Source: Patescibacteria group bacterium (lineage in GTDB: Bacteria; Patescibacteriota; Minisyncoccia; Phycocordibacterales; JACOZG01). Taken from it: a DNA stretch of 64,000 nucleotides. Positions 4,940 through 51,591 of the stretch are shown here, piece by piece (the stretch's first letter is position 1; each line of letters begins with the position of its first letter). The stretch is taken from contig JBBTTC010000001.1 of the NCBI GenBank assembly GCA_038064435.1, positions 3,170 to 67,169 of the forward strand. Direction: 5' to 3'. Below the pieces are notes generated by a model that saw nothing but the letters and a program-made list of their open reading frames with translations, did no database searches and had not been told where the DNA came from. Position numbers and translations under genes: made by a program.

Positions 4940-6097
4940 ATGACTCGAAGAGCTCCAGTGCTTGCTCTGGTGGCCCTCATTGTAGTTGGGCCGCTTTTTG
5001 CTGTTTCCGGCAATCGAGTTCAGGCGGCAGAAACTAGTAATGGTCCACAGTTGGAATTAGCTATTAGCGAGGAATTTACCGGCGGGTCGGTTGCCATGCC
5101 CAATACGGGAGATGGCGGCGGTGGGACGAATGGTAATAGTGTTAACGTCACGGAAGCGATCTCGAGTGAGAGTCAGTTTGTGGCGGAGGTCGGCGAAGGT
5201 AGTTTTACCACTGGTGCTCGACCAAGTAGTTCAGGCGCCAGTATCGTTAGTTCCGAGAGCGCGTTCCAAACAGCATCGGGTGGTGCGCGGGGCGACGTGG
5301 CAATTGGCGACGAAGTTTCGTTTACTACGGTTTTTGGCGAAGGGCAATTTACCACTTTAGCACCGCCGGGGGGTGGCGGTGGAGGTGGTGGTGGATCAGG
5401 TGGCGGCGGTAGTTCCGGCGAGGGCGGAAGCAGTGGTGGTGGCGGGGGTGGCGGCAGTTTGCGTCGTGTACCGCCACTAGCCACGGCCGGAGCAAGTGTT
5501 TGTCCACCGTATCTTTGGAAGTTTATCAAGCGAGGAGCCAACAACGATCCGGTGCAAGTGCGCCGACTTCAGACCTTTTTGCGTGACGAGCAGGGCTTTA
5601 AGGGTTTGGCGGTGACTGGTTTTTACGATGAGGTAACGTTTGCCGCAGTATCAGTGTTCCAGCGCCGTTATTTCCGTGATGTCTTGGCGCCCTGGGGGCT
5701 AAAAGATGCCACTGGTTGGGTGTATATCACAACCACATTGACGATCAACAATTTGCACTGCCAGCGGGACACTCGTCATAATCTTAACTTCCGATCTCAA
5801 GTCAAATCGGCAACCAGTTTGGTGCCGATTGCGACCTCTACTCCGATTGCACTGCTGGCCAGTAGCACAATAATTAACGCCAGTCCCCAGCCCATTGTTT
5901 CTGGTTGGGAGGAAGGATCTTGGTGGCTAATCGGTGTTTTGCTGGTGGCTTTCGGGGCAATGATTGGCTACATTAGCCAATTGCGAAAACGGGTTAAGGA
6001 ACTGGAAGCCCTGCCATCGCTTGATGGTGGGGATGATGGTTTGGATCAGTTTAATACTGACGGTATCAATGAAAATGATCAAATAGACGAAACGTAG
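4940..6097 (+). CDS. Secreted Gly-rich protein with peptidoglycan-binding (PG_binding_1-like) domain and C-terminal TM anchor
   Basis: Signal peptide MTRRAPVLALVALIVVGPLFAVSG. Poly-Gly/Ser linker (GGGGGGGGGSGGGGSSGEGGSSGGGGGGGS). Segment VQVRRLQTFLRDEQGFKGLAVTGFYDEVTFAAVSVFQRRY matches the PG-binding fold pattern. C-terminal TM WWLIGVLLVAFGAMIGYI followed by an acidic tail. Confidence 0.6.
   Translation: MTRRAPVLALVALIVVGPLFAVSGNRVQAAETSNGPQLELAISEEFTGGSVAMPNTGDGGGGTNGNSVNVTEAISSESQFVAEVGEGSFTTGARPSSSGASIVSSESAFQTASGGARGDVAIGDEVSFTTVFGEGQFTTLAPPGGGGGGGGGSGGGGSSGEGGSSGGGGGGGSLRRVPPLATAGASVCPPYLWKFIKRGANNDPVQVRRLQTFLRDEQGFKGLAVTGFYDEVTFAAVSVFQRRYFRDVLAPWGLKDATGWVYITTTLTINNLHCQRDTRHNLNFRSQVKSATSLVPIATSTPIALLASSTIINASPQPIVSGWEEGSWWLIGVLLVAFGAMIGYISQLRKRVKELEALPSLDGGDDGLDQFNTDGINENDQIDET
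5365..5458 (+). repeat. Low-complexity GGN/GGC simple repeat (poly-Gly/Ser linker coding)
   Basis: ggtggcggtggaggtggtggtgga... run. The antisense strand reads as a proline-rich ORF (5173..5544 -), which is an artefact. Confidence 0.6.
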
Positions 6098-6152
6098 TAG
6101 TGCTGTTTGGCGAAGCGTGGTGGTTCGTTGAAATTTAAACAAGGAGAAGCAA

Positions 6153-6701
6153 ATGAGGAAAACGGTTCTTGGTTTGATGGCTTGTGCGGGGTTGATGGGT
6201 TGCGGTTCAGTCACTGACGATAGTGGCTTGGAGTTGGTGGAGGTTGTTCCCAATGATCTTGTTGTTCTCGATGATCTGGAAGTGGGGGACGATGTTCACA
6301 TTGTTGGGAATTTGGTGGTCGATGGTACGATCACCAGCGGCGGCGGTAATGTGATGGTGCCGGAAGACGTTGACATTCTCGCCGCCAGTATTCTCGAACC
6401 CAATCATCTCGAGGAATTCAAAGTTGGTGATCTGGTGCCACTAAGCGTGATGGTTATTGGTCAAGGAGATTTCCATCTTGCTTGTCAATGGCCAGATGCC
6501 ACATTCAGCGATCAGGATTTGGTAATTGGCGTTGATGGGCTTGTAACGGTTGATTTTAATCATACCTTCTTGATTCCCATCAACACGGGAGCCATCAATT
6601 GTCGAGCGGCGTTAAAGCCGCTGGAAACCGATGAAGCGGAAAACGAAGATGGACCGGAACCGGTGACGGTCTCGGTTTACATCAACGTTGTCACGCCATA
6701 A
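6153..6701 (+). CDS. Acidic lipoprotein (signal peptide with LMGC lipobox), function unknown
   Basis: MRKTVLGLMACAGLMGCGS has a lipobox-like L-M-G-C. An RBS aaggagaagcaaATG precedes it. The mature protein is rich in D/E/V. Confidence 0.55.
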   Translation: MRKTVLGLMACAGLMGCGSVTDDSGLELVEVVPNDLVVLDDLEVGDDVHIVGNLVVDGTITSGGGNVMVPEDVDILAASILEPNHLEEFKVGDLVPLSVMVIGQGDFHLACQWPDATFSDQDLVIGVDGLVTVDFNHTFLIPINTGAINCRAALKPLETDEAENEDGPEPVTVSVYINVVTP

Positions 6702-46353: not shown

Positions 46354-47673
46354 ATGTTTAAATCTTTTTTTAGAAAAATAATTTCCACTCTTTTGCGTTG
46401 GGAGGCGCGGCTGGTGCTCATCAAGTATCGACCCAAAATCGTGGCAGTGACGGGCAGTGTGGGTAAGACTACCACTAAGGATGCTGTCTATCATTTGTTG
46501 AACCATTTTTATCCTACAGGCCGGAGTCAAAAAAGTTATAACAGCGATTTGGGTTTGCCGTTGACAATTTTGGGTTGCGACAGCGCCGGCCGGAGGCCGG
46601 CGGGCTGGATCAAGAATTTGCTCGAGGGTTTGGTGTTGGTTTTTTGGCCCAATCATTATCCCAAGTGGTTGGTGTTGGAGGTGGGAGCTGATCGCCCGGG
46701 TGACATAGCTTCGATCATTGCTTGGCTTCGACCGGACATGGCGATATTAACTGCTTTGCCGGAGGTGCCGGCCCACATCGAGTTTTTCGCCACCGCCGAG
46801 GCCGTGGCACGGGAGAAAAGTTTTTTGTTGGCGGCGATAAAGAAAAAAGGAATCGCGATTTTGAATCATGACGATGAGCGTATTGCTGGAGTAAAAAAGT
46901 CATTGGCCAATCATTGGGCCGAACGCCAGATTCGTATTCTAAGTTACGGGTTTGGGGGTGGGGATGTTCGAGCCTCGCACGACCACTTAATTGCTGGCGC
47001 TGATGGGGAGATGTGGCCACGTGGTTTGAGTTTCAAGATCAATTATGGTTCGAATTCCATCCCGCTTTCAATTCCGGCGATTTTAGCGCGTGAGCAAGCC
47101 CAAGCTGTGTTGGCGGCTTTGGCGGTTGGTCAGGCACTGGAATTGTCGTGGCTCAAAATGACGGAGGCAATGACCACTTTTGTACCGCCGCCCGGTCGTT
47201 TACGTTCGCTCCCCGGGATTAAAAATACCTTATTGATTGATGACACTTATAATTCTTCGCCGGCGGCATTGGTAGCGGCGCTGGAGCTGGTCAAAAAAAT
47301 TCCCGTCACCGGTCGGCGTATTGTGGTGCTCGGCGATATGCTGGAACTCGGCACGCAAACCATGGCGGCGCATCGCGCCGCCGGTGTGGCGGCCGCGGCG
47401 GTGGCTGATTTTTTAATTACCGTTGGACCGCGAGCTAAATTTATTGCCGAGGCGGCTGATAAAAAGAGGTTTGGCAAACGCAAAATGAAACATTTTGATG
47501 AGCCGAATGAAGTTGGGCAGTTTTTGCAAAACTTTCTCCAGCCCGGCGACTTGGTTTTGTTTAAAGCCTCGCAGGCCGTGCGTCTCGAGCGCGCCGTACT
47601 GGAGGTTATGGCCGAGCCGGCCCGGCGCGCAGAACTGCTTGTCAGGCAAGACCGCGACTGGTTAAATAGGTAA
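46354..47673 (+). CDS. murF: Mur ligase, most likely UDP-MurNAc-tripeptide--D-Ala-D-Ala ligase MurF
   Basis: IVAVTGSVGKTTTKDAVYHLL (P-loop), Mur ligase middle and C-terminal domains. 439 aa fits MurF better than MurE. Confidence 0.65.
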   Translation: MFKSFFRKIISTLLRWEARLVLIKYRPKIVAVTGSVGKTTTKDAVYHLLNHFYPTGRSQKSYNSDLGLPLTILGCDSAGRRPAGWIKNLLEGLVLVFWPNHYPKWLVLEVGADRPGDIASIIAWLRPDMAILTALPEVPAHIEFFATAEAVAREKSFLLAAIKKKGIAILNHDDERIAGVKKSLANHWAERQIRILSYGFGGGDVRASHDHLIAGADGEMWPRGLSFKINYGSNSIPLSIPAILAREQAQAVLAALAVGQALELSWLKMTEAMTTFVPPPGRLRSLPGIKNTLLIDDTYNSSPAALVAALELVKKIPVTGRRIVVLGDMLELGTQTMAAHRAAGVAAAAVADFLITVGPRAKFIAEAADKKRFGKRKMKHFDEPNEVGQFLQNFLQPGDLVLFKASQAVRLERAVLEVMAEPARRAELLVRQDRDWLNR

Positions 47674-47687
47674 TATCTAACGGTTAG

Positions 47688-47737
47688 TCCCGATTCCGTA
47701 AACGGAATCGCGGATCCACGTCCCGACAAGTCGGGAC
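47688..47737 (+). repeat. Hairpin-pair repeat unit, copy 1 (conserved hairpin cgattccgtAAacggaatcg plus variable hairpin gtcccgacAAgtcgggac), upstream of the GIY-YIG ORF
   Basis: 27-nt tcccgattccgtaaacggaatcgcgga at 47688-47714 recurs at 48020-48046 with 26/27 identity. It is embedded between tRNA-Glu-like fragments tctaacggttag (47676-47687) and gacatcagcccctca (47742-47756). Confidence 0.6.
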
Positions 47738-47764
47738 GGGAGACATCAGCCCCTCATTCATTAG

Positions 47765-48007
47765 ATGTATAGCACGTATATTTTAAAATTAAGTGACAAT
47801 TCTTATTACATTGGTAGTACTGGCAATTTATCTCAACGTATTTTTGCACACGAACAAGCAAAAGTTCGTTCTACCAAAAACAAGTTACCTTGCCAATTAA
47901 TCTATCAAGAAAATCATGGCACCAGAAGTGAAGCTCAAGCCAGAGAATATCAGATCAAAAAATGGAAAAGTCGCGCGGCGATTGAAAGGTTATTGAAAAA
48001 TCAGTAG
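47765..48007 (+). CDS. GIY-YIG nuclease superfamily protein (small YhbQ/UPF0213-type)
   Basis: YILKLSDNSYYIGSTGNLSQRIFAHEQ is the GIY-(10 aa)-YIG motif with conserved R. 80 aa. Confidence 0.75.
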   Translation: MYSTYILKLSDNSYYIGSTGNLSQRIFAHEQAKVRSTKNKLPCQLIYQENHGTRSEAQAREYQIKKWKSRAAIERLLKNQ

Positions 48008-48019
48008 GATAAGTATCGG

Positions 48020-48072
48020 TCCCGATTCCGTTTACGGAATCGCGGACTCGCGATTTTTGCTAGCAAAAATCG
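48020..48072 (+). repeat. Hairpin-pair repeat unit, copy 2 (same conserved hairpin plus different second hairpin cgatttttgcTAgcaaaaatcg), immediately 5' of tRNA-Glu
   Basis: tcccgattccgtttacggaatcgcgga at 48020-48046, then a perfect 10-bp-stem palindrome at 48051-48072. Confidence 0.6.
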
Positions 48073-48075
48073 GAG

Positions 48076-48147
48076 GGCCCTATCGTCTAACGGTTAGGAC
48101 ATCAGCTTCTCAAGCTGGTAATCCGGGTTCGATTCCCGGTGGGGTCA
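48076..48147 (+). tRNA. tRNA-Glu (anticodon CTC), no encoded CCA
   Basis: Manual fold: acceptor ggcccta/tggggtc; U8; D-arm gtct-aacggtta-ggac; anticodon arm tcagc-ttCTCaa-gctgg; T-arm ccggg-ttcgatt-cccgg; discriminator A. Confidence 0.8.
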
Positions 48148-48388
48148 TAAAAACAAGGAACCAGATGCGAAGCATCGGTGACTATGTTTTTATGATCTAA
48201 TCATATCCTTTTCGCGAACTTTTTTCCAGCAAAACTAACTCATCCCGCCACGCCTCGGGAGTACCCTCGGCGTCCGCCCTCCGCCCCAGCGCCAATCCAT
48301 GCTTTTTGTTTGGCGTGGGTTTTTTGATTTCGGAATGGGCGCTGGGGCTTCGGGCGGACCAAATTTAGTTTATCAAAAATTTCGATTA

Positions 48389-48422
48389 CGAAAAAGAAAA
48401 ACCCGCACACAAGGTACGGGTT
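48389..48422 (-). terminator. Rho-independent terminator (minus strand) after the small membrane-protein operon
   Basis: On the minus strand: aacccgtaccttgtgtgcgggtt followed by tttctttttcg. Confidence 0.6.
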
Positions 48423-48462
48423 CCAGATTTTGTTCACCACTTCTGGAAAGTGGACCATCTGG

Positions 48463-48693
48463 TCATTGGTGGAAAAAGACGACTAGGCATGTTACGAAAC
48501 ATAACATCCCTTCCAACATAACTCTTTTTCTACGCAAAACTCGAGGCGTGGAGGAAGAACTCTTGTTCGTGTAATAGTTGGTAATGGTTTCGAGATCCTC
48601 CTTTGCTCCCAACCAAAAATAGGAACCAAAAACTACAACCAAGGCCGAGAGAAACATTCCGACTTTAGTCAAATCAAGCAAATTCGGGTGCAT
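48463..48693 (-). CDS. Small membrane protein (2 TM), hypothetical
   Basis: 76 aa with two hydrophobic helices. Its own terminator lies downstream, and it sits 5 nt after the preceding gene on the same strand. Confidence 0.5.
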   Translation of the reverse strand: MHPNLLDLTKVGMFLSALVVVFGSYFWLGAKEDLETITNYYTNKSSSSTPRVLRRKRVMLEGMLCFVTCLVVFFHQ

Positions 48694-48698
48694 GGCAA

Positions 48699-49205
48699 CT
48701 ATTCCTTTGTTAAAGTGCTTGGTTGATTCTCAACTTCGTTGAGGGCAAAAACCAAACTTTCCTTGGAAATAAACAATTCCTTCTCTTTGTTTGTTTGGTC
48801 GTGGAAGCGATACACACCGTCCACAATTTTTTGGAAGCAAAGATGTTCACCCCCACGCAGATTAACAATGTTGCCCGCCTGCAAACGATTGACTATCTCA
48901 TTTGCTTTTTGTTCCCACGCTCTGTACAGCTGGCCGGGGGTTTGTTCGTCGAGATTTTTCCTTTCGTGTGACAGGGGTGGAAGCGAATGTGTATACATCA
49001 TAACAAATCCTCCCAAAATCACACCAGCAATTCCAGCCCCACCGAACCAACCAACAAGAAAGATCTTGTTGCGTCGGTTCTGTAAACTTTCTTCCTGCAG
49101 ACCGCACAAACCGATCAGGACCATGAAAGAAATACAACAAATCATAATCATCTCTAATTCTCCTCTGGCCAAGCTTGGCCAAAACGGGTTCCATTCTGTT
49201 GTCAA
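48699..49205 (-). CDS. Membrane protein (2 TM plus soluble C-domain), hypothetical
   Basis: Hydrophobic helices MIMICCISFMVLIGLCGL and IFLVGWFGGAGIAGVILGGFVMM. A promoter lies upstream on the minus strand. Confidence 0.5.
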   Translation of the reverse strand: MTTEWNPFWPSLARGELEMIMICCISFMVLIGLCGLQEESLQNRRNKIFLVGWFGGAGIAGVILGGFVMMYTHSLPPLSHERKNLDEQTPGQLYRAWEQKANEIVNRLQAGNIVNLRGGEHLCFQKIVDGVYRFHDQTNKEKELFISKESLVFALNEVENQPSTLTKE

Positions 49206-49252
49206 GGTGGTGAACGCTCACCACGAACAATTTGCAACGATTTACTAATGCT

Positions 49253-49281
49253 AGTTTAGCACATCGCCCTAAACTTGTCAA
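49253..49281 (-). promoter_or_regulatory. Sigma70-like promoter on the minus strand (TTGACA -17- TAAACT) for the membrane-protein operon
   Basis: Minus-strand sequence ttgacaagtttagggcgatgtgctaaact, with an exact 17-nt spacer. Confidence 0.5.
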
Positions 49282-49419
49282 GTGTTTTGGCTATGTCAAA
49301 TAACCATTATTTCAAGGCACATTCTGACCCCTTGACGCCGTTTGAGTATTTGCTATTATGGGAATACAAACGGTTTCGGCCTCATCCGCCTCGGCGGATA
49401 GAAAACGCAAAAGCGGTTA

Positions 49420-49809
49420 TCACTGGCAAAGTTTGATGACCGCTTTTTGTATTTTGGCATAATCCTCGGTTTTCAAAACGGCAAATTTATCGAGCAACCG
49501 CTTGGCATCCACTAATCGTAATTGAGAAATGATAGCCGAGCGTTCCTCGCCATCACTTAAATCTACTGGCACATAGAATTTACCGCCTTTGCGTTTTCTG
49601 GTCAGTGGAATAGACCAAAAAACTTCATTGTTGAACTTTTTGAAAATGATGATCGGACGAGCGAAGTTGTAACCTTTGCCATCTTGCTCAAAACCAACAT
49701 TGTAACCGAGTGAGCACCACCAGACCTCACGCTCGTGGAAAAACACCCGCGCGCCCTCGTTATGTAACTTCTCTTTCTTTTTGTGCCACTTCAAAAAGTC
49801 TTTCTCCAT
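49420..49809 (-). CDS. MazF/PemK-family endoribonuclease toxin-like protein (orphan: no adjacent antitoxin ORF)
   Basis: REVWWCSLGYNVGFEQDGKGYNFARPIIIFKKFNNEVFWSIPLT...SAIISQLRLVDAKRL matches the PemK/MazF pattern (ge.w.v.lgpn.GsEq.G.rPvlvl...fn...f...P.T.......S.vl.dQiR.vdk.RL). Start at ATG 49809 preceded by tattat with no SD, so leaderless-like. The TTG at 49839 was rejected. Confidence 0.65.
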   Translation of the reverse strand: MEKDFLKWHKKKEKLHNEGARVFFHEREVWWCSLGYNVGFEQDGKGYNFARPIIIFKKFNNEVFWSIPLTRKRKGGKFYVPVDLSDGEERSAIISQLRLVDAKRLLDKFAVLKTEDYAKIQKAVIKLCQ

Positions 49810-49897
49810 GATTTGATAATAGCAAAATTTGCTTCTCAATTGAAAAAGTTAGTCGTGTGCAAAATCCGAGCGAATGATATAATTAGTTCAAAATAAC

Positions 49898-50878
49898 TTG
49901 AGGAAAAAAATTCGCGTGGCGGTGGTGTCGGGAGGTAAGTCGGCGGAGCATGAGGTATCACTCCGTTCGGCTAAGAACGTGGCTGCGGCCATGGACAAAA
50001 GTAAGTACGAAGTGGTACCAGTTAAAATTGGTAAGACTGGTCAGTGGCCAATTCGTGGTTCGTGGGAAAAATTTTTTAGCTCAATAGACGTAGTATTCCC
50101 AATTTTGCATGGGCCATTTGGTGAAGACGGTACGGTGCAGGGCTTGCTCAAAATTATTGGCGTGCCGTTTGTTGGCGCTGGCGTGTTGGGCTCAGCCGTG
50201 GGGATGGATAAGGACGTGATGAAGCGACTGTTACGTCAGGCCAGTATTCCGGTCGGTAAATTTATGGTTTTTAAATCTGGTGAGAAAATTAGTTTTGTTC
50301 GGGTAAGACGGGGGTTAGGTTTACCACTTTTTGTTAAACCGGCCAACATGGGTTCGTCGGTGGGGGTGAGTAAGGCGGTTGATGAATTGTCTTTGGCCAA
50401 AGCTATTAAGACCGCATTTAAATTTGACACCAAAATTATTATTGAAGAATTTATTGCCGGTCGAGAATTGGAATGTGCTGTGCTCGGCAATGACGAGCCG
50501 ATAGTTTCGGTGCCTGGCGAAGTTTTGGTCAAAGGTGGCTTTTATTCTTATGAGGCCAAATATAGCAGCGCGAGCGAGGCCGTAACGGAAATTCCAGCTA
50601 AGGTTCCACAAAAAATAGTCAAAGAAATTCAAAAACTAGCCGTAAAAACCTTCACCACCCTGTGTGGCGAGGGTTTGGCGCGGGTGGATTTTTTTCTCAA
50701 GAATGACGGCCGAATTTATGTTAATGAAATAAACACCATGCCCGGGTTTACTAATATCAGCATGTATCCTAAACTATGGGCCGAGAGCGGGATATCGTAC
50801 TCGCACCTAATTGACCGTCTCATCCAACTCGCTCTCGCTCACACCAAAGCCGAGAAAAAATTGAGAATTTCTATATGA
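49898..50878 (+). CDS. ddl: D-alanine--D-alanine ligase (TTG start)
   Basis: RVAVVSGGKSAEHEVSLRSAKNV, ATP-grasp motifs, C-terminal ...INEINTMPGFT. Confidence 0.9.
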   Translation: MRKKIRVAVVSGGKSAEHEVSLRSAKNVAAAMDKSKYEVVPVKIGKTGQWPIRGSWEKFFSSIDVVFPILHGPFGEDGTVQGLLKIIGVPFVGAGVLGSAVGMDKDVMKRLLRQASIPVGKFMVFKSGEKISFVRVRRGLGLPLFVKPANMGSSVGVSKAVDELSLAKAIKTAFKFDTKIIIEEFIAGRELECAVLGNDEPIVSVPGEVLVKGGFYSYEAKYSSASEAVTEIPAKVPQKIVKEIQKLAVKTFTTLCGEGLARVDFFLKNDGRIYVNEINTMPGFTNISMYPKLWAESGISYSHLIDRLIQLALAHTKAEKKLRISI

Positions 50879-51591
50879 AAGCCGAAAGGGCGACTAACCC
50901 ACATCAGTACGATTCTCCGGAAATTAATTGGCCCGTTTTGGGTGCCGAAGACGCTCGCAAATATTTTCGTGATGTTCTAGATTCAATCATCAAGGATGAT
51001 TATTTAGAGGGGAAAAAAGTAATTGATATCGGTTCCGGAGTCGGGCACTTGTTTGATTGGTTACGCACAAGAGGCGCTAGTGATGTAACTGGCATCGATC
51101 CGTCAACAAAAAATATTGCAATAAGCAGTAATAAATACCCATGGGCGATTTCGGTGGTATCAACATGAAATGAAGTTGCCGAGAAAAATGTTGAGCCCTT
51201 TGATGTGGCGATAGCAATTTTAGTTTTCGAACATATCCAAAACCTGCGCGAAGCTTTTGGTGACGTAAACAAACTTCTTCGCACTGGGGGACAGTTTTAT
51301 CTAATTGTATGCGACAAAGATTACAGTGTTTCTAATGATAAAGAATTGAGAAGCGCTGGGTTTGTAAGTACGGAAATAATAAAAGAGTTGGAGGGCGACG
51401 CTGTTGAAACCAAAACCGTAAGAGATTTAACCGACGGTTCTTCTAGCGTGATGTACGATATTTTTCGACCGGTCGAACAGGTTCGAGAGGCAGCTAAGAC
51501 AGAAGGATTAACATTAATTACCGAGCAAGCTTTATTGAGTTCCACCGCAACCCCGGTTCCCATGTTGCATGTTTTAGTCTTCACTAAATAA
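50875..51591 (+). pseudogene. Class I SAM-dependent methyltransferase interrupted by a single in-frame TGA (51166-51168)
   Basis: The upstream part carries motif I VIDIGSGVGHL and post-I DVTGIDPS. The downstream part carries FDVAIAILVFEHIQN...LLRTGGQF (motifs II/III). Both parts are in the same frame, separated only by TGA (VVST*NEVAE). Confidence 0.55.

What the first reader, a model, noticed from the sequence alone, without database searches (positions are those of the whole stretch)
48150..49897. Small lower-GC island between tRNA-Glu and ddl that splits the dcw cluster: membrane-protein operon plus orphan MazF/PemK-like toxin
murF and ddl are normally linked within the dcw cluster. Here they are separated by the GIY-YIG cassette, tRNA-Glu and about 1.7 kb on the opposite strand. 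That segment has a well-defined operon (promoter TTGACA-17-TAAACT, two small membrane proteins, terminator) and a MazF/PemK-family toxin homologue. No antitoxin-sized ORF flanks the toxin, and its start codon sits directly after a -10 box. A tRNA-adjacent island with an unpaired toxin suggests horizontal acquisition. The toxin might be neutralised in trans or act as an abortive-infection-type module together with the membrane proteins.
Basis: partly seen in the sequence, partly recalled or inferred. Interest (0 to 1): 0.55.

Follow-up and report, generated by a model that had tools for sequence, protein, structure and literature searches.

The report
MazF toxin paired with convergent sRNA
The "orphan" MazF/PemK toxin gene has a partner after all: a roughly 90-nt structured small RNA gene that faces its 3' end in almost every copy of this toxin family across the Patescibacteria, and probably replaces the usual protein antitoxin.

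Summary

- **The toxin is not orphan.** A structured sRNA gene lies at 49366-49454 (+), with its own promoter at 49332-49359. It converges on the toxin gene, and its terminator hairpin covers the toxin stop codon.
- **The RNA is conserved with the toxin.** It sits next to almost every copy in 81 related loci, second copies included. Covariation is strong (94% of cells paired against 66% shuffled). Rfam has no match.
- **Only about 0.6 kb is imported.** PemK plus sRNA (49253-49890) is 82% identical in DNA to copies in unrelated contexts, while MurF has no relative above 52%. A sister strain has the membrane operon without this module.
- **The membrane ORFs are resident** and have no homologues elsewhere.
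- **murF-ddl linkage is not ancestral here.** In relatives the block ends at murF, followed in two of three by tRNA-Glu.

Best reading: a toxin-antitoxin module with an RNA antitoxin. Whether the RNA binds the protein or acts by antisense pairing is unresolved.

The parts
48076..48147 (+). tRNA-Glu(CTC), the conserved left anchor of the variable region
   Evidence: ARAGORN and Rfam tRNA at 61 bits. tRNA-Glu(CTC) follows murF, with one small gene between, in relatives L175 and L177.
48398..48424 (-). Terminator-like hairpin ending the membrane-ORF operon
   Evidence: 11-bp stem followed by a T run.
48463..48693 (-). 76-aa ORF with two hydrophobic stretches; resident, with no homologues outside the species
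   Evidence: ORF list; no Pfam, NCBIfam or PADLOC family. Present in sister strain L178; pN/pS 0.71 from only 7 differences.
48699..49151 (-). 150-aa ORF with two hydrophobic stretches and a soluble C-terminal part; resident, with no homologues outside the species
   Evidence: GAGGAG lies 8 nt before the ATG. One homologue among 5.8 billion proteins, 94% identical, from the sister strain. pN/pS 0.35 from 14 differences.
49253..49281 (-). Hybrid promoter TTGACA-17-TAAACT, which is also the recombination junction
   Evidence: Promoter scan, 10 of 12 matches. Homology to the PemK modules of L001 and L005 ends at 49253. Homology to sister strain L178 ends at 49263.
49332..49359 (+). Promoter of the sRNA (TTGACG-16-TGCTATTAT)
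   Evidence: Promoter scan, 10 of 12 matches with an extended -10. The same two boxes sit at the same distance from the RNA's 5' motif in 76 distinct loci.
49366..49454 (+). Structured sRNA, about 90 nt. Layout: 5' tail ACAAAC; P1 49372-49381, GGU(UUCG)GCC; P2 49384-49399; A-rich linker; P3 terminator hairpin about 49405-49450 plus a U tract. Candidate RNA antitoxin.
   Evidence: Covariance model hit of 70.1 bits, E 2e-12, the only copy in the window. Folding energy -33.4 kcal/mol, z -3.98. Covariation across 63 sequences. No Rfam match.
49420..49809 (-). PemK/MazF-family endoribonuclease gene, 129 aa; its last 35 nt are antisense to the sRNA
   Evidence: Pfam PF02452. Profile matches to B. 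subtilis MazF/EndoA (1ne8, 4mdx), with Arg51 and Thr70 aligned to catalytic R25 and T48. Predicted fold matches MazF structures, TM 0.6-0.77.
49816..49824 (-). Extended -10 (TGCTATTAT) 6 nt before the PemK ATG; the mRNA is probably leaderless
   Evidence: Read from the sequence. Kept in L001 and L005. Similar boxes lie 5-9 nt before the ATG in many family members. Leaderless status is inferred, not shown.
49857..49890 (+). 34-bp stretch shared with the PemK locus of L001-L004. It carries TGATATAAT (49875-49883), which faces ddl. This is the outer edge of the imported segment.
   Evidence: 94% identity over 34 bp. L001-L004 carry an extra 237 bp between this stretch and PemK.

Best explanation
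The 1.7-kb segment has two unrelated parts.

Part 1, 48150-49252. This is a resident, strain-level variable region downstream of tRNA-Glu. It holds two small membrane ORFs of unknown role that have no homologues outside this species.

Part 2, 49253-49890. This is a horizontally acquired module of about 0.6 kb. It holds a probably leaderless gene for a MazF/PemK-fold endoribonuclease and a convergent sRNA gene of about 90 nt with its own sigma-70-type promoter. The two transcripts share a bidirectional terminator hairpin that covers the toxin stop codon.

Proposed mechanism (inferred, not shown). The sRNA takes the place of the missing MazE/PemI protein as antitoxin. Its nearly invariant 5' domain is a single-stranded ACAAAY tail, a GGC(UUCG)GCC hairpin (P1) and a variable hairpin with a GNRA or UUCG loop (P2). 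I propose that this domain is recognised by the RNase and occupies or blocks its RNA-binding groove, as in type III systems. The 3' hairpin is a terminator that also gives 35-50 nt of perfect antisense to the 3' end of the toxin mRNA, which may add control of the type I kind.

The module has promoter-like sites facing outwards at both ends. In the window these now face the membrane operon and ddl.
For: - **The RNA is real.** A covariance model built from 13 sequences hits window 49366-49454 at 70.1 bits, E 2e-12.
- **Covariation is strong.** Across 63 sequences, 94.3% of cells are paired, against 66% after shuffling and 44-53% with partners slid. 28 of 30 pairs show changes on both sides.
- **The strand is the one opposite PemK.** 60 of 76 P2 loops are GNRA or UNCG on that strand, against 1 of 76 on the PemK strand. 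P1 has a UUCG loop. A -35/-10 pair keeps a fixed distance from the 5' motif in 76 loci.
- **Linkage to the toxin is tight.** There are 78 convergent hits at E<0.01 in 74 of 82 sources, including beside second copies in L018, L035, L053 and L071, and no copy away from a PemK gene in 816 kb.
- **Divergent second copies keep the layout.** The second copies in L019 and L031 use a different P1: GGG(GAAA)CCC and GGG(GUUA)CCC.
- **No protein partner.** No conserved neighbouring ORF in 71 loci.
- **The toxin looks active.** Catalytic Arg and Thr/Ser are kept, and the fold is MazF.
- **The 5' domain is not explained by antisense pairing.** It is no more complementary to its own PemK 5' region than to others (p 0.39).
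- **Horizontal transfer.** PemK is 93% and 84% identical in amino acids, and 82% and 78% in DNA, to copies beside a serine recombinase and inside a type-IV-secretion-like cluster. MurF has no relative above 52%.
- **Sister strain.** L178 has the membrane operon without the module, and the junction falls at 49253-49263.
Against: - No expression data. The promoter and transcript ends are inferred from sequence and conservation only.
- Toxicity of this PemK family and neutralisation by the RNA are untested.
- The strict convergent, overlapping layout is typical of type I antisense control, not of the known protein-binding RNA antitoxins, which are tandem repeats upstream of the toxin.
- The alignment used for pair counts was fitted to the model, which favours the structure.
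- One locus with an intact gene (L012) has no clear RNA.
- The literature check covers only the held library, so an earlier description cannot be excluded.
Confidence: 0.5

Rival explanations
1. Pure type I-like control. The sRNA acts only as a cis-antisense RNA. It pairs with the 3' end of the PemK mRNA through the shared terminator hairpin, which triggers degradation (for example by RNase III) or blocks translation. There is no contact with the protein.
For: The convergent layout with 35-50 nt of perfect overlap recurs throughout the family. A shared bidirectional terminator is the architecture of par (fst/RNAII), and convergent 3' overlap is that of txpA/RatA; both comparisons are from my own knowledge of those systems. 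In the window/L001/L005 subgroup, an 18-nt string in the sRNA is repeated in sense inside the ORF, which points to an RNA-RNA interplay.
Against: The most conserved part of the RNA (5' tail plus P1) lies outside the overlap and has no complementary site in the mRNA. Divergent second copies change P1 while keeping the layout; a cis-antisense mechanism would not need that. The ORF-3'UTR repeat is not general in the family (p 0.16).
Confidence: 0.22
2. The sRNA is a real partner but not an antitoxin. For example, it could be the dedicated substrate or cargo of a non-toxic PemK-like processing RNase, or a regulatory RNA of mobile elements that happens to share a terminator with the gene.
For: Protein conservation is unusually high for a toxin (58-93% amino-acid identity in a sample of 28 members spanning many named candidate phyla). 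The module is tolerated inside a core operon, between atpG and atpD, in 4 loci. There is no PADLOC hit.
Against: The catalytic residues and fold are those of MazF toxins. Multicopy, patchy, context-free distribution near recombinases and conjugation genes is typical of addiction modules. No third conserved component exists.
Confidence: 0.18
3. This is an orphan toxin on a tRNA-adjacent island. It is neutralised in trans or works with the two membrane proteins as an abortive-infection module.
For: No protein antitoxin is present. The segment lies next to a tRNA and has low GC.
Against: The membrane operon exists without PemK in sister strain L178. No other copy of the PemK module has these membrane genes. 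A conserved cis partner, the sRNA, exists. There is no PADLOC match.
Confidence: 0.04
4. The conserved stretch acts at the DNA level only, as a terminator plus promoter or insulator, or as a recombination site. It does not act as a functional RNA.
For: It contains a terminator and promoter-like boxes. The module junctions lie in promoter sequence.
Against: P2 keeps its pairing through changes on both sides, with strand-specific GNRA/UUCG loops. P1 is a canonical C(UUCG)G hairpin placed just after the inferred transcription start.
Confidence: 0.06

Closest known systems
Type II MazEF / PemIK (e.g. B. subtilis EndoA-MazF, PDB 1NE8, 4MDX, 4ME7)
   Same: The toxin fold and catalytic Arg and Thr/Ser are the same. 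Pfam PemK_toxin matches above its threshold.
   Different: There is no MazE/PemI gene in the window or the family. The protein has about 25 extra N-terminal residues and a longer, highly conserved loop before the catalytic Arg (GFEQDGKGxxFARP). The gene is probably leaderless and monocistronic. Its partner is an RNA.
Type III toxin-antitoxin systems (ToxIN, CptIN, TenpIN)
   Same: An endoribonuclease toxin with an RNA as its only linked partner, and a terminator between the two. From my own knowledge, ToxN has a Kid/MazF-like fold. The conserved, structured, non-antisense part of the RNA fits recognition by the protein.
   Different: Known type III antitoxins are tandem repeats upstream of the toxin on the same strand, cut into units by the toxin (PMC3401426, PMC8860590 abstracts). 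Here the RNA is a single copy, downstream, convergent and with its own promoter. The toxin belongs to the PemK/MazF family, not the ToxN family.
Type I systems with convergent RNAs: par (fst/RNAII) with a shared bidirectional terminator; txpA/RatA and bsrG/SR4 with 3' overlap; SymE/SymR as a non-peptide example
   Same: A cis-encoded sRNA with its own promoter that overlaps the toxin mRNA. For par, the terminator is shared.
   Different: Type I toxins are mostly small hydrophobic peptides; this one is a 129-aa RNase. The best-conserved RNA domain lies outside the overlap and has no target in the mRNA.
pemK RNA motif (Rfam) and the aMEF antisense RNA of E. coli mazEF (PMC8749433)
   Same: Both are RNA elements associated with PemK/MazF genes.
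   Different: From my own knowledge, the pemK motif is a 5'-UTR cis element in Firmicutes. Neither it nor any other Rfam family matches this RNA, even at E up to 10. aMEF acts on a system that still has MazE.

Membership tests
Type II MazEF/PemIK | Toxin of the MazF/PemK fold with the catalytic Arg and Thr/Ser | tested here: met
   PF02452 at 34.6 bits against a cut-off of 23.1. R51 and T70 align to R25 and T48 of B. subtilis MazF. Foldseek top hits are all MazF.
Type II MazEF/PemIK | Adjacent, co-transcribed protein antitoxin (MazE/PemI) | tested here: not met
   No suitable ORF in 49206-49419 or 49810-49897. No conserved neighbouring ORF in 71 loci apart from artefacts that lie over the RNA. 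The 64-aa ORF called upstream in L002 and L004 is low-complexity and absent from the window.
Type III (ToxIN-like) | RNA antitoxin encoded as tandem direct repeats upstream of the toxin, on the same strand | tested here: not met
   Single copy, downstream and convergent. No tandem repeat was found in the region.
Type III (ToxIN-like) | The RNA binds and inhibits the toxin protein directly | not testable with these tools
   Indirect support only: an invariant 5' domain with no antisense target, and P1 differs in divergent second copies.
Type I | Antitoxin is an sRNA with its own promoter that can base-pair with the toxin mRNA | tested here: met
   Conserved promoter. The sRNA overlaps the last 35 nt of the ORF, including the stop codon, plus the 3' UTR. 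Transcription itself is not shown.
Type I | Toxin is a small, usually hydrophobic peptide | tested here: not met
   The toxin is a 129-aa soluble MazF-fold protein.
tRNA-adjacent genomic island | A contiguous foreign segment next to a tRNA, absent from close relatives, usually with an integrase and direct repeats of the tRNA end | tested here: inconclusive
   Only 49253-49890 behaves as foreign DNA. There is no integrase in the segment and no repeat of the tRNA 3' end. The region after tRNA-Glu differs between relatives. In L001-L003 the same module lies near a tRNA-Glu and a serine recombinase between perfect 126-bp inverted repeats.

The most novel reading that the evidence does not exclude
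Across the Patescibacteria, a MazF-family RNase has exchanged its protein antitoxin for a single-copy, convergently encoded structured sRNA. The sRNA's 5' tail and UUCG hairpin bind the toxin directly as a pseudo-substrate. This would be a new toxin-antitoxin architecture, between types I and III, carried on a self-contained cassette of about 0.5 kb that can sit even inside core operons.
Probability: 0.3. Interest if true: 0.85.

Novelty: new variant of a known kind. Interest (0 to 1): 0.72.

Why it matters
MazF toxins are textbook type II toxins, defined by a protein antitoxin. Here a whole branch of the family has no protein partner and carries a strictly linked structured sRNA instead. That branch covers at least 501 matches in species-level genomes and 192 clusters at 50% identity with E<=1e-30.

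If the sRNA is the antitoxin, this links the type I, II and III classes through one toxin fold. It would also explain why "solitary MazF" genes appear in reduced genomes, and it adds an RNA family, absent from Rfam, to a phylum with very few known regulatory RNAs.

The cassette is small enough (about 500 bp) to test directly in E. coli.

Tried and rejected
- **A protein antitoxin.** I listed ORFs of 25 aa or more within 600 bp of PemK in 71 loci and clustered them. The only recurrent cluster (16 loci) lies over the RNA itself. It has variable length and starts upstream of the inferred transcription start. 1-2-nt indels in the stretch also argue against coding.
- **The 64-aa ORF upstream of PemK in L002 and L004.** It is low-complexity and the window lacks that 237 bp.
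- **Extra pairing of the sRNA 5' domain with the PemK mRNA.** Its own and other loci's 5' regions pair equally well.
- **ORF-3'UTR long-range pairing as a family feature.** It is strong only in the window, L001 and L005.
- **Depletion of the sRNA 5'-tail 5-mers inside PemK ORFs.** None found.
- **Known RNA families.** Rfam gives nothing at E up to 1 in the window or up to 10 in L024.
- **Defence-system models.** No PADLOC hit.
- **Viral origin.** No relative in IMG/VR.
- **Synteny through ddl.** The metagenome scan returned only relatives at 52-64% identity, none sharing other genes of the window, so it was uninformative. MurF contexts were used instead.
- **Membrane ORFs.** No family in Pfam, NCBIfam or PADLOC, and a single near-identical homologue. 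Their function is left open.
- **Structure model.** Only moderate quality (pLDDT 64, N-terminal 36 residues unreliable), so it was used for fold assignment only.
- **Literature.** Five searches found no description of this RNA or of an antitoxin-less MazF with an sRNA in the candidate phyla radiation (CPR).
Full report
**What is at the coordinates.** The window comes from a Patescibacteria/Paceibacterota-type genome. PemK homologues are named that way by their sources. Contigs that encode an identical MurF protein come from Hainich groundwater metagenomes, and the longest (L169) has the same gene order as the window. The order is rsmH, an ftsL-like gene, a PBP gene, murF (46354-47673), a GIY-YIG gene (47765-48007) and tRNA-Glu(CTC) (48076-48147), all on the + strand. 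On the minus strand follow a terminator-like hairpin (48424-48398), a 76-aa ORF (48463-48693), a 150-aa ORF (48699-49151, with GAGGAG before the ATG) and a promoter-like TTGACA-17-TAAACT (49281-49253). Next comes a 129-aa ORF (49420-49809), and then ddl on the + strand from 49898.

The 129-aa protein passes Pfam PemK_toxin (E 2.4e-8, 34.6 bits against a cut-off of 23.1). GC of 48150-49897 is 0.436 against 0.491 for the window, in the lowest 1% of same-size windows. ddl and the following genes are also low, at 0.42-0.46.

**The toxin family.** The protein belongs to a large and well-conserved family:
- 965 clusters at 90% identity, most about 130 aa long.
- 192 clusters at 50% identity with E<=1e-30, and 1758 with E<=1e-10.

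Nearly all named sources are Patescibacteria lineages. A family profile reaches B. subtilis MazF/EndoA (1ne8, 4mdx; E 1e-4). The invariant Arg51 and the Thr/Ser at position 70 align with its catalytic R25 and T48. A moderate AlphaFold model (pLDDT 64) matches only MazF structures, with TM 0.6-0.77. The family therefore looks like an active MazF-type endoribonuclease. It has an extra basic N-terminal segment and a longer, very conserved loop before the catalytic Arg.

**No protein antitoxin, but a conserved RNA.** The flanks of the window gene hold no suitable ORF. In 71 related loci no neighbouring ORF is conserved. Instead, DNA similarity between the window and the closest homologues' loci runs about 165 bp past the stop codon. 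In the 80 genome loci, the roughly 100 nt after the PemK stop carry one recurring element. Read on the strand opposite to PemK, it runs in this order:
- TTGACn, a spacer of 16-17 nt, then (TG)nTAnnAT.
- About 6 nt, then ACAAAY and GGC(UUCG)GCC, which is hairpin P1.
- A variable GC-rich hairpin, P2.
- An A-rich linker.
- A long hairpin, P3, which covers the PemK stop codon, followed by a U tract.

A covariance model built from 13 sequences finds the element at window 49366-49454 (+) with 70.1 bits and E 2e-12. It is the only copy in the 64 kb. The model gives 78 convergent hits at E<0.01 in 74 of 82 sources. Most of the sources it misses still show recognisable variants by eye.

Every extra hit lies beside a second PemK copy, in L018, L035, L053 and L071, and none lies away from a PemK gene in 816 kb. 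The covariation figures are:
- 94.3% of cells are paired, against 66% after shuffling and 44-53% with partners slid.
- 28 of 30 pairs show changes on both sides.

One caveat applies: that alignment was fitted to the model.

The strand is clear. 60 of 76 P2 loops are GNRA or UNCG on the strand opposite to PemK, and 1 of 76 on the other. P1 is a canonical C(UUCG)G hairpin, weakened to U(UUCG)G in the window. The window RNA folds at -33.4 kcal/mol (z -3.98), against -27.6 (z -2.61) for the other strand. Indels of 1-2 nt exclude coding. Rfam has no match, even at permissive thresholds. Five literature searches found no description.

**How it may work.** The shown facts are tight genetic linkage of an RNase gene of toxin type with a structured sRNA gene that has its own promoter, the absence of a protein partner, and a shared hairpin that can terminate both transcripts. 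That hairpin makes their 3' ends perfectly complementary over 35-50 nt. That the sRNA is the antitoxin is inferred.

Two modes are possible. The layout is that of type I systems with convergent RNAs. However, the most conserved part of the RNA (5' tail and P1) lies outside the overlap. It shows no better pairing to its own PemK 5' region than to those of other loci (p 0.39).

Divergent second copies in L019 and L031 keep the layout but carry a different P1, GGG(GAAA)CCC or GGG(GUUA)CCC. That is what one would expect if each RNA must be recognised by its own protein. I therefore favour recognition of the 5' domain by the RNase, as in type III systems, with the antisense overlap as a second layer. 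I hold this loosely: 0.5 for the overall RNA-antitoxin model with protein contact, and 0.22 for pure antisense control.

In the window/L001/L005 subgroup, an 18-nt string of the sRNA recurs in sense at codons 70-76 of the ORF. As a result the mRNA's own 3' UTR can pair with its coding region (-32 kcal/mol). This is not general in the family and remains unexplained.

Many copies, including the window's, have a -10 box 5-9 nt before the ATG and no Shine-Dalgarno sequence, so the mRNA is probably leaderless.

**What was acquired and what was not.** PemK is 93% identical to a copy in another Paceibacterota genome. That copy lies beside a large serine recombinase flanked by perfect 126-bp inverted repeats, next to a tRNA-Glu. 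PemK is also 84% identical to a copy inside a TraC/VirB4/PrgI-type cluster. DNA identity is 82% and 78% over window 49253-49832, plus a 34-bp stretch at 49857-49890. By contrast, MurF of this genome has no relative above 52%.

A sister strain (L178) is 94.7% identical over 48240-49263. It carries the two membrane ORFs, but upstream of their promoter it has a different, divergent gene whose N-terminus looks like that of a valyl-tRNA synthetase (by eye only). It has no PemK, no sRNA and no ddl. The two homology boundaries, 49253 and 49263, meet inside the TTGACA-17-TAAACT promoter, so that promoter is a hybrid junction.

The imported piece is therefore about 0.6 kb, not 1.7 kb. In four other genomes the same module sits between atpG and atpD. 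That gives a minimal unit of about 0.5 kb: the ORF plus the sRNA gene.

The membrane ORFs have a single near-identical homologue among 5.8 billion proteins and match no family. pN/pS is 0.35 and 0.71, from 14 and 7 differences. They are resident, of uncertain function, and unrelated to the toxin.

**Synteny.** In three relatives (MurF 49-52% identical), the block mraZ-rsmH-ftsL-PBP-murF ends at murF. Two of the three then have one small gene and tRNA-Glu(CTC), and what follows the tRNA differs in each. ddl never follows. None of 80 loci fetched with ddl has murF upstream. The segment therefore lies in a naturally variable spot after tRNA-Glu. It does not split a conserved murF-ddl pair.

**Verdict.** The main result is a previously unlisted sRNA family that always accompanies a MazF-type toxin lacking an antitoxin, throughout the Patescibacteria. 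I class it as a new variant of a known kind of system (toxin-antitoxin). It can be tested directly.

Noticed in passing
window 47660-48075 and L177 8280-8700: The 80-aa GIY-YIG gene is flanked on both sides by a two-hairpin repeat (47687-47714 and 48019-48046, 26 of 28 nt identical). The GIY-YIG gene of distant relative L177 has the same layout with different, compensating hairpin sequences. The upstream copy sits within a stretch resembling the 5' half of tRNA-Glu (TCTAACGGTTAG; GACATCAGCCCCTCA). GIY-YIG is 76% identical between genomes whose MurF is 49% identical.
   Followed up: partly
window about 48146 (3' end of tRNA-Glu): Two independent Logan assemblies that carry an identical MurF end at this point, and a third ends about 35 nt earlier (L170-L172). 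This fits either strain variation after the tRNA or a repeat shared with a near-identical tRNA-Glu paralogue.
   Followed up: no
window 49400-49417 and 49582-49599: An 18-nt inverted repeat with 17 of 18 matches. The sRNA and codons 70-76 of PemK carry the same sense string, so the PemK 3' UTR can pair with its own ORF. The repeat is also present in L001 and L005 but is not general in the family.
   Followed up: partly
L002 6050-6175 and 7585-7710 (also L001, L003): Perfect 126-bp inverted repeats enclose a large serine recombinase gene, starting at the 3' end of a tRNA-Glu and ending beside the PemK module. This may be an invertible segment.
   Followed up: partly
L045, L056, L076, L078 (about 5400-6500): The PemK plus sRNA module is inserted between atpG and atpD of the ATP synthase operon.
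   Followed up: partly
window 50875-51591: A class I methyltransferase is split into two ORFs (97 aa and 128 aa) that match the N- and C-terminal parts of the same Pfam models. This is a frameshift, a pseudogene or a split gene.
   Followed up: no
window 48272-48359: A 25-nt inverted repeat (84% complementary) with 38 nt between the arms lies between the tRNA and the operon terminator. It gives weak hairpin-type hits on both strands in Rfam. A 72-aa ORF called here in L169 is probably spurious.
   Followed up: no
window 49875-49883: An extended -10 (TGATATAAT) lies 14 nt before the annotated TTG start of ddl, inside the 34 bp shared with the PemK locus of L001. ddl may therefore be driven by a promoter that came in with the module. 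Gene callers place the ddl start 18 nt further in (320 aa).
   Followed up: no
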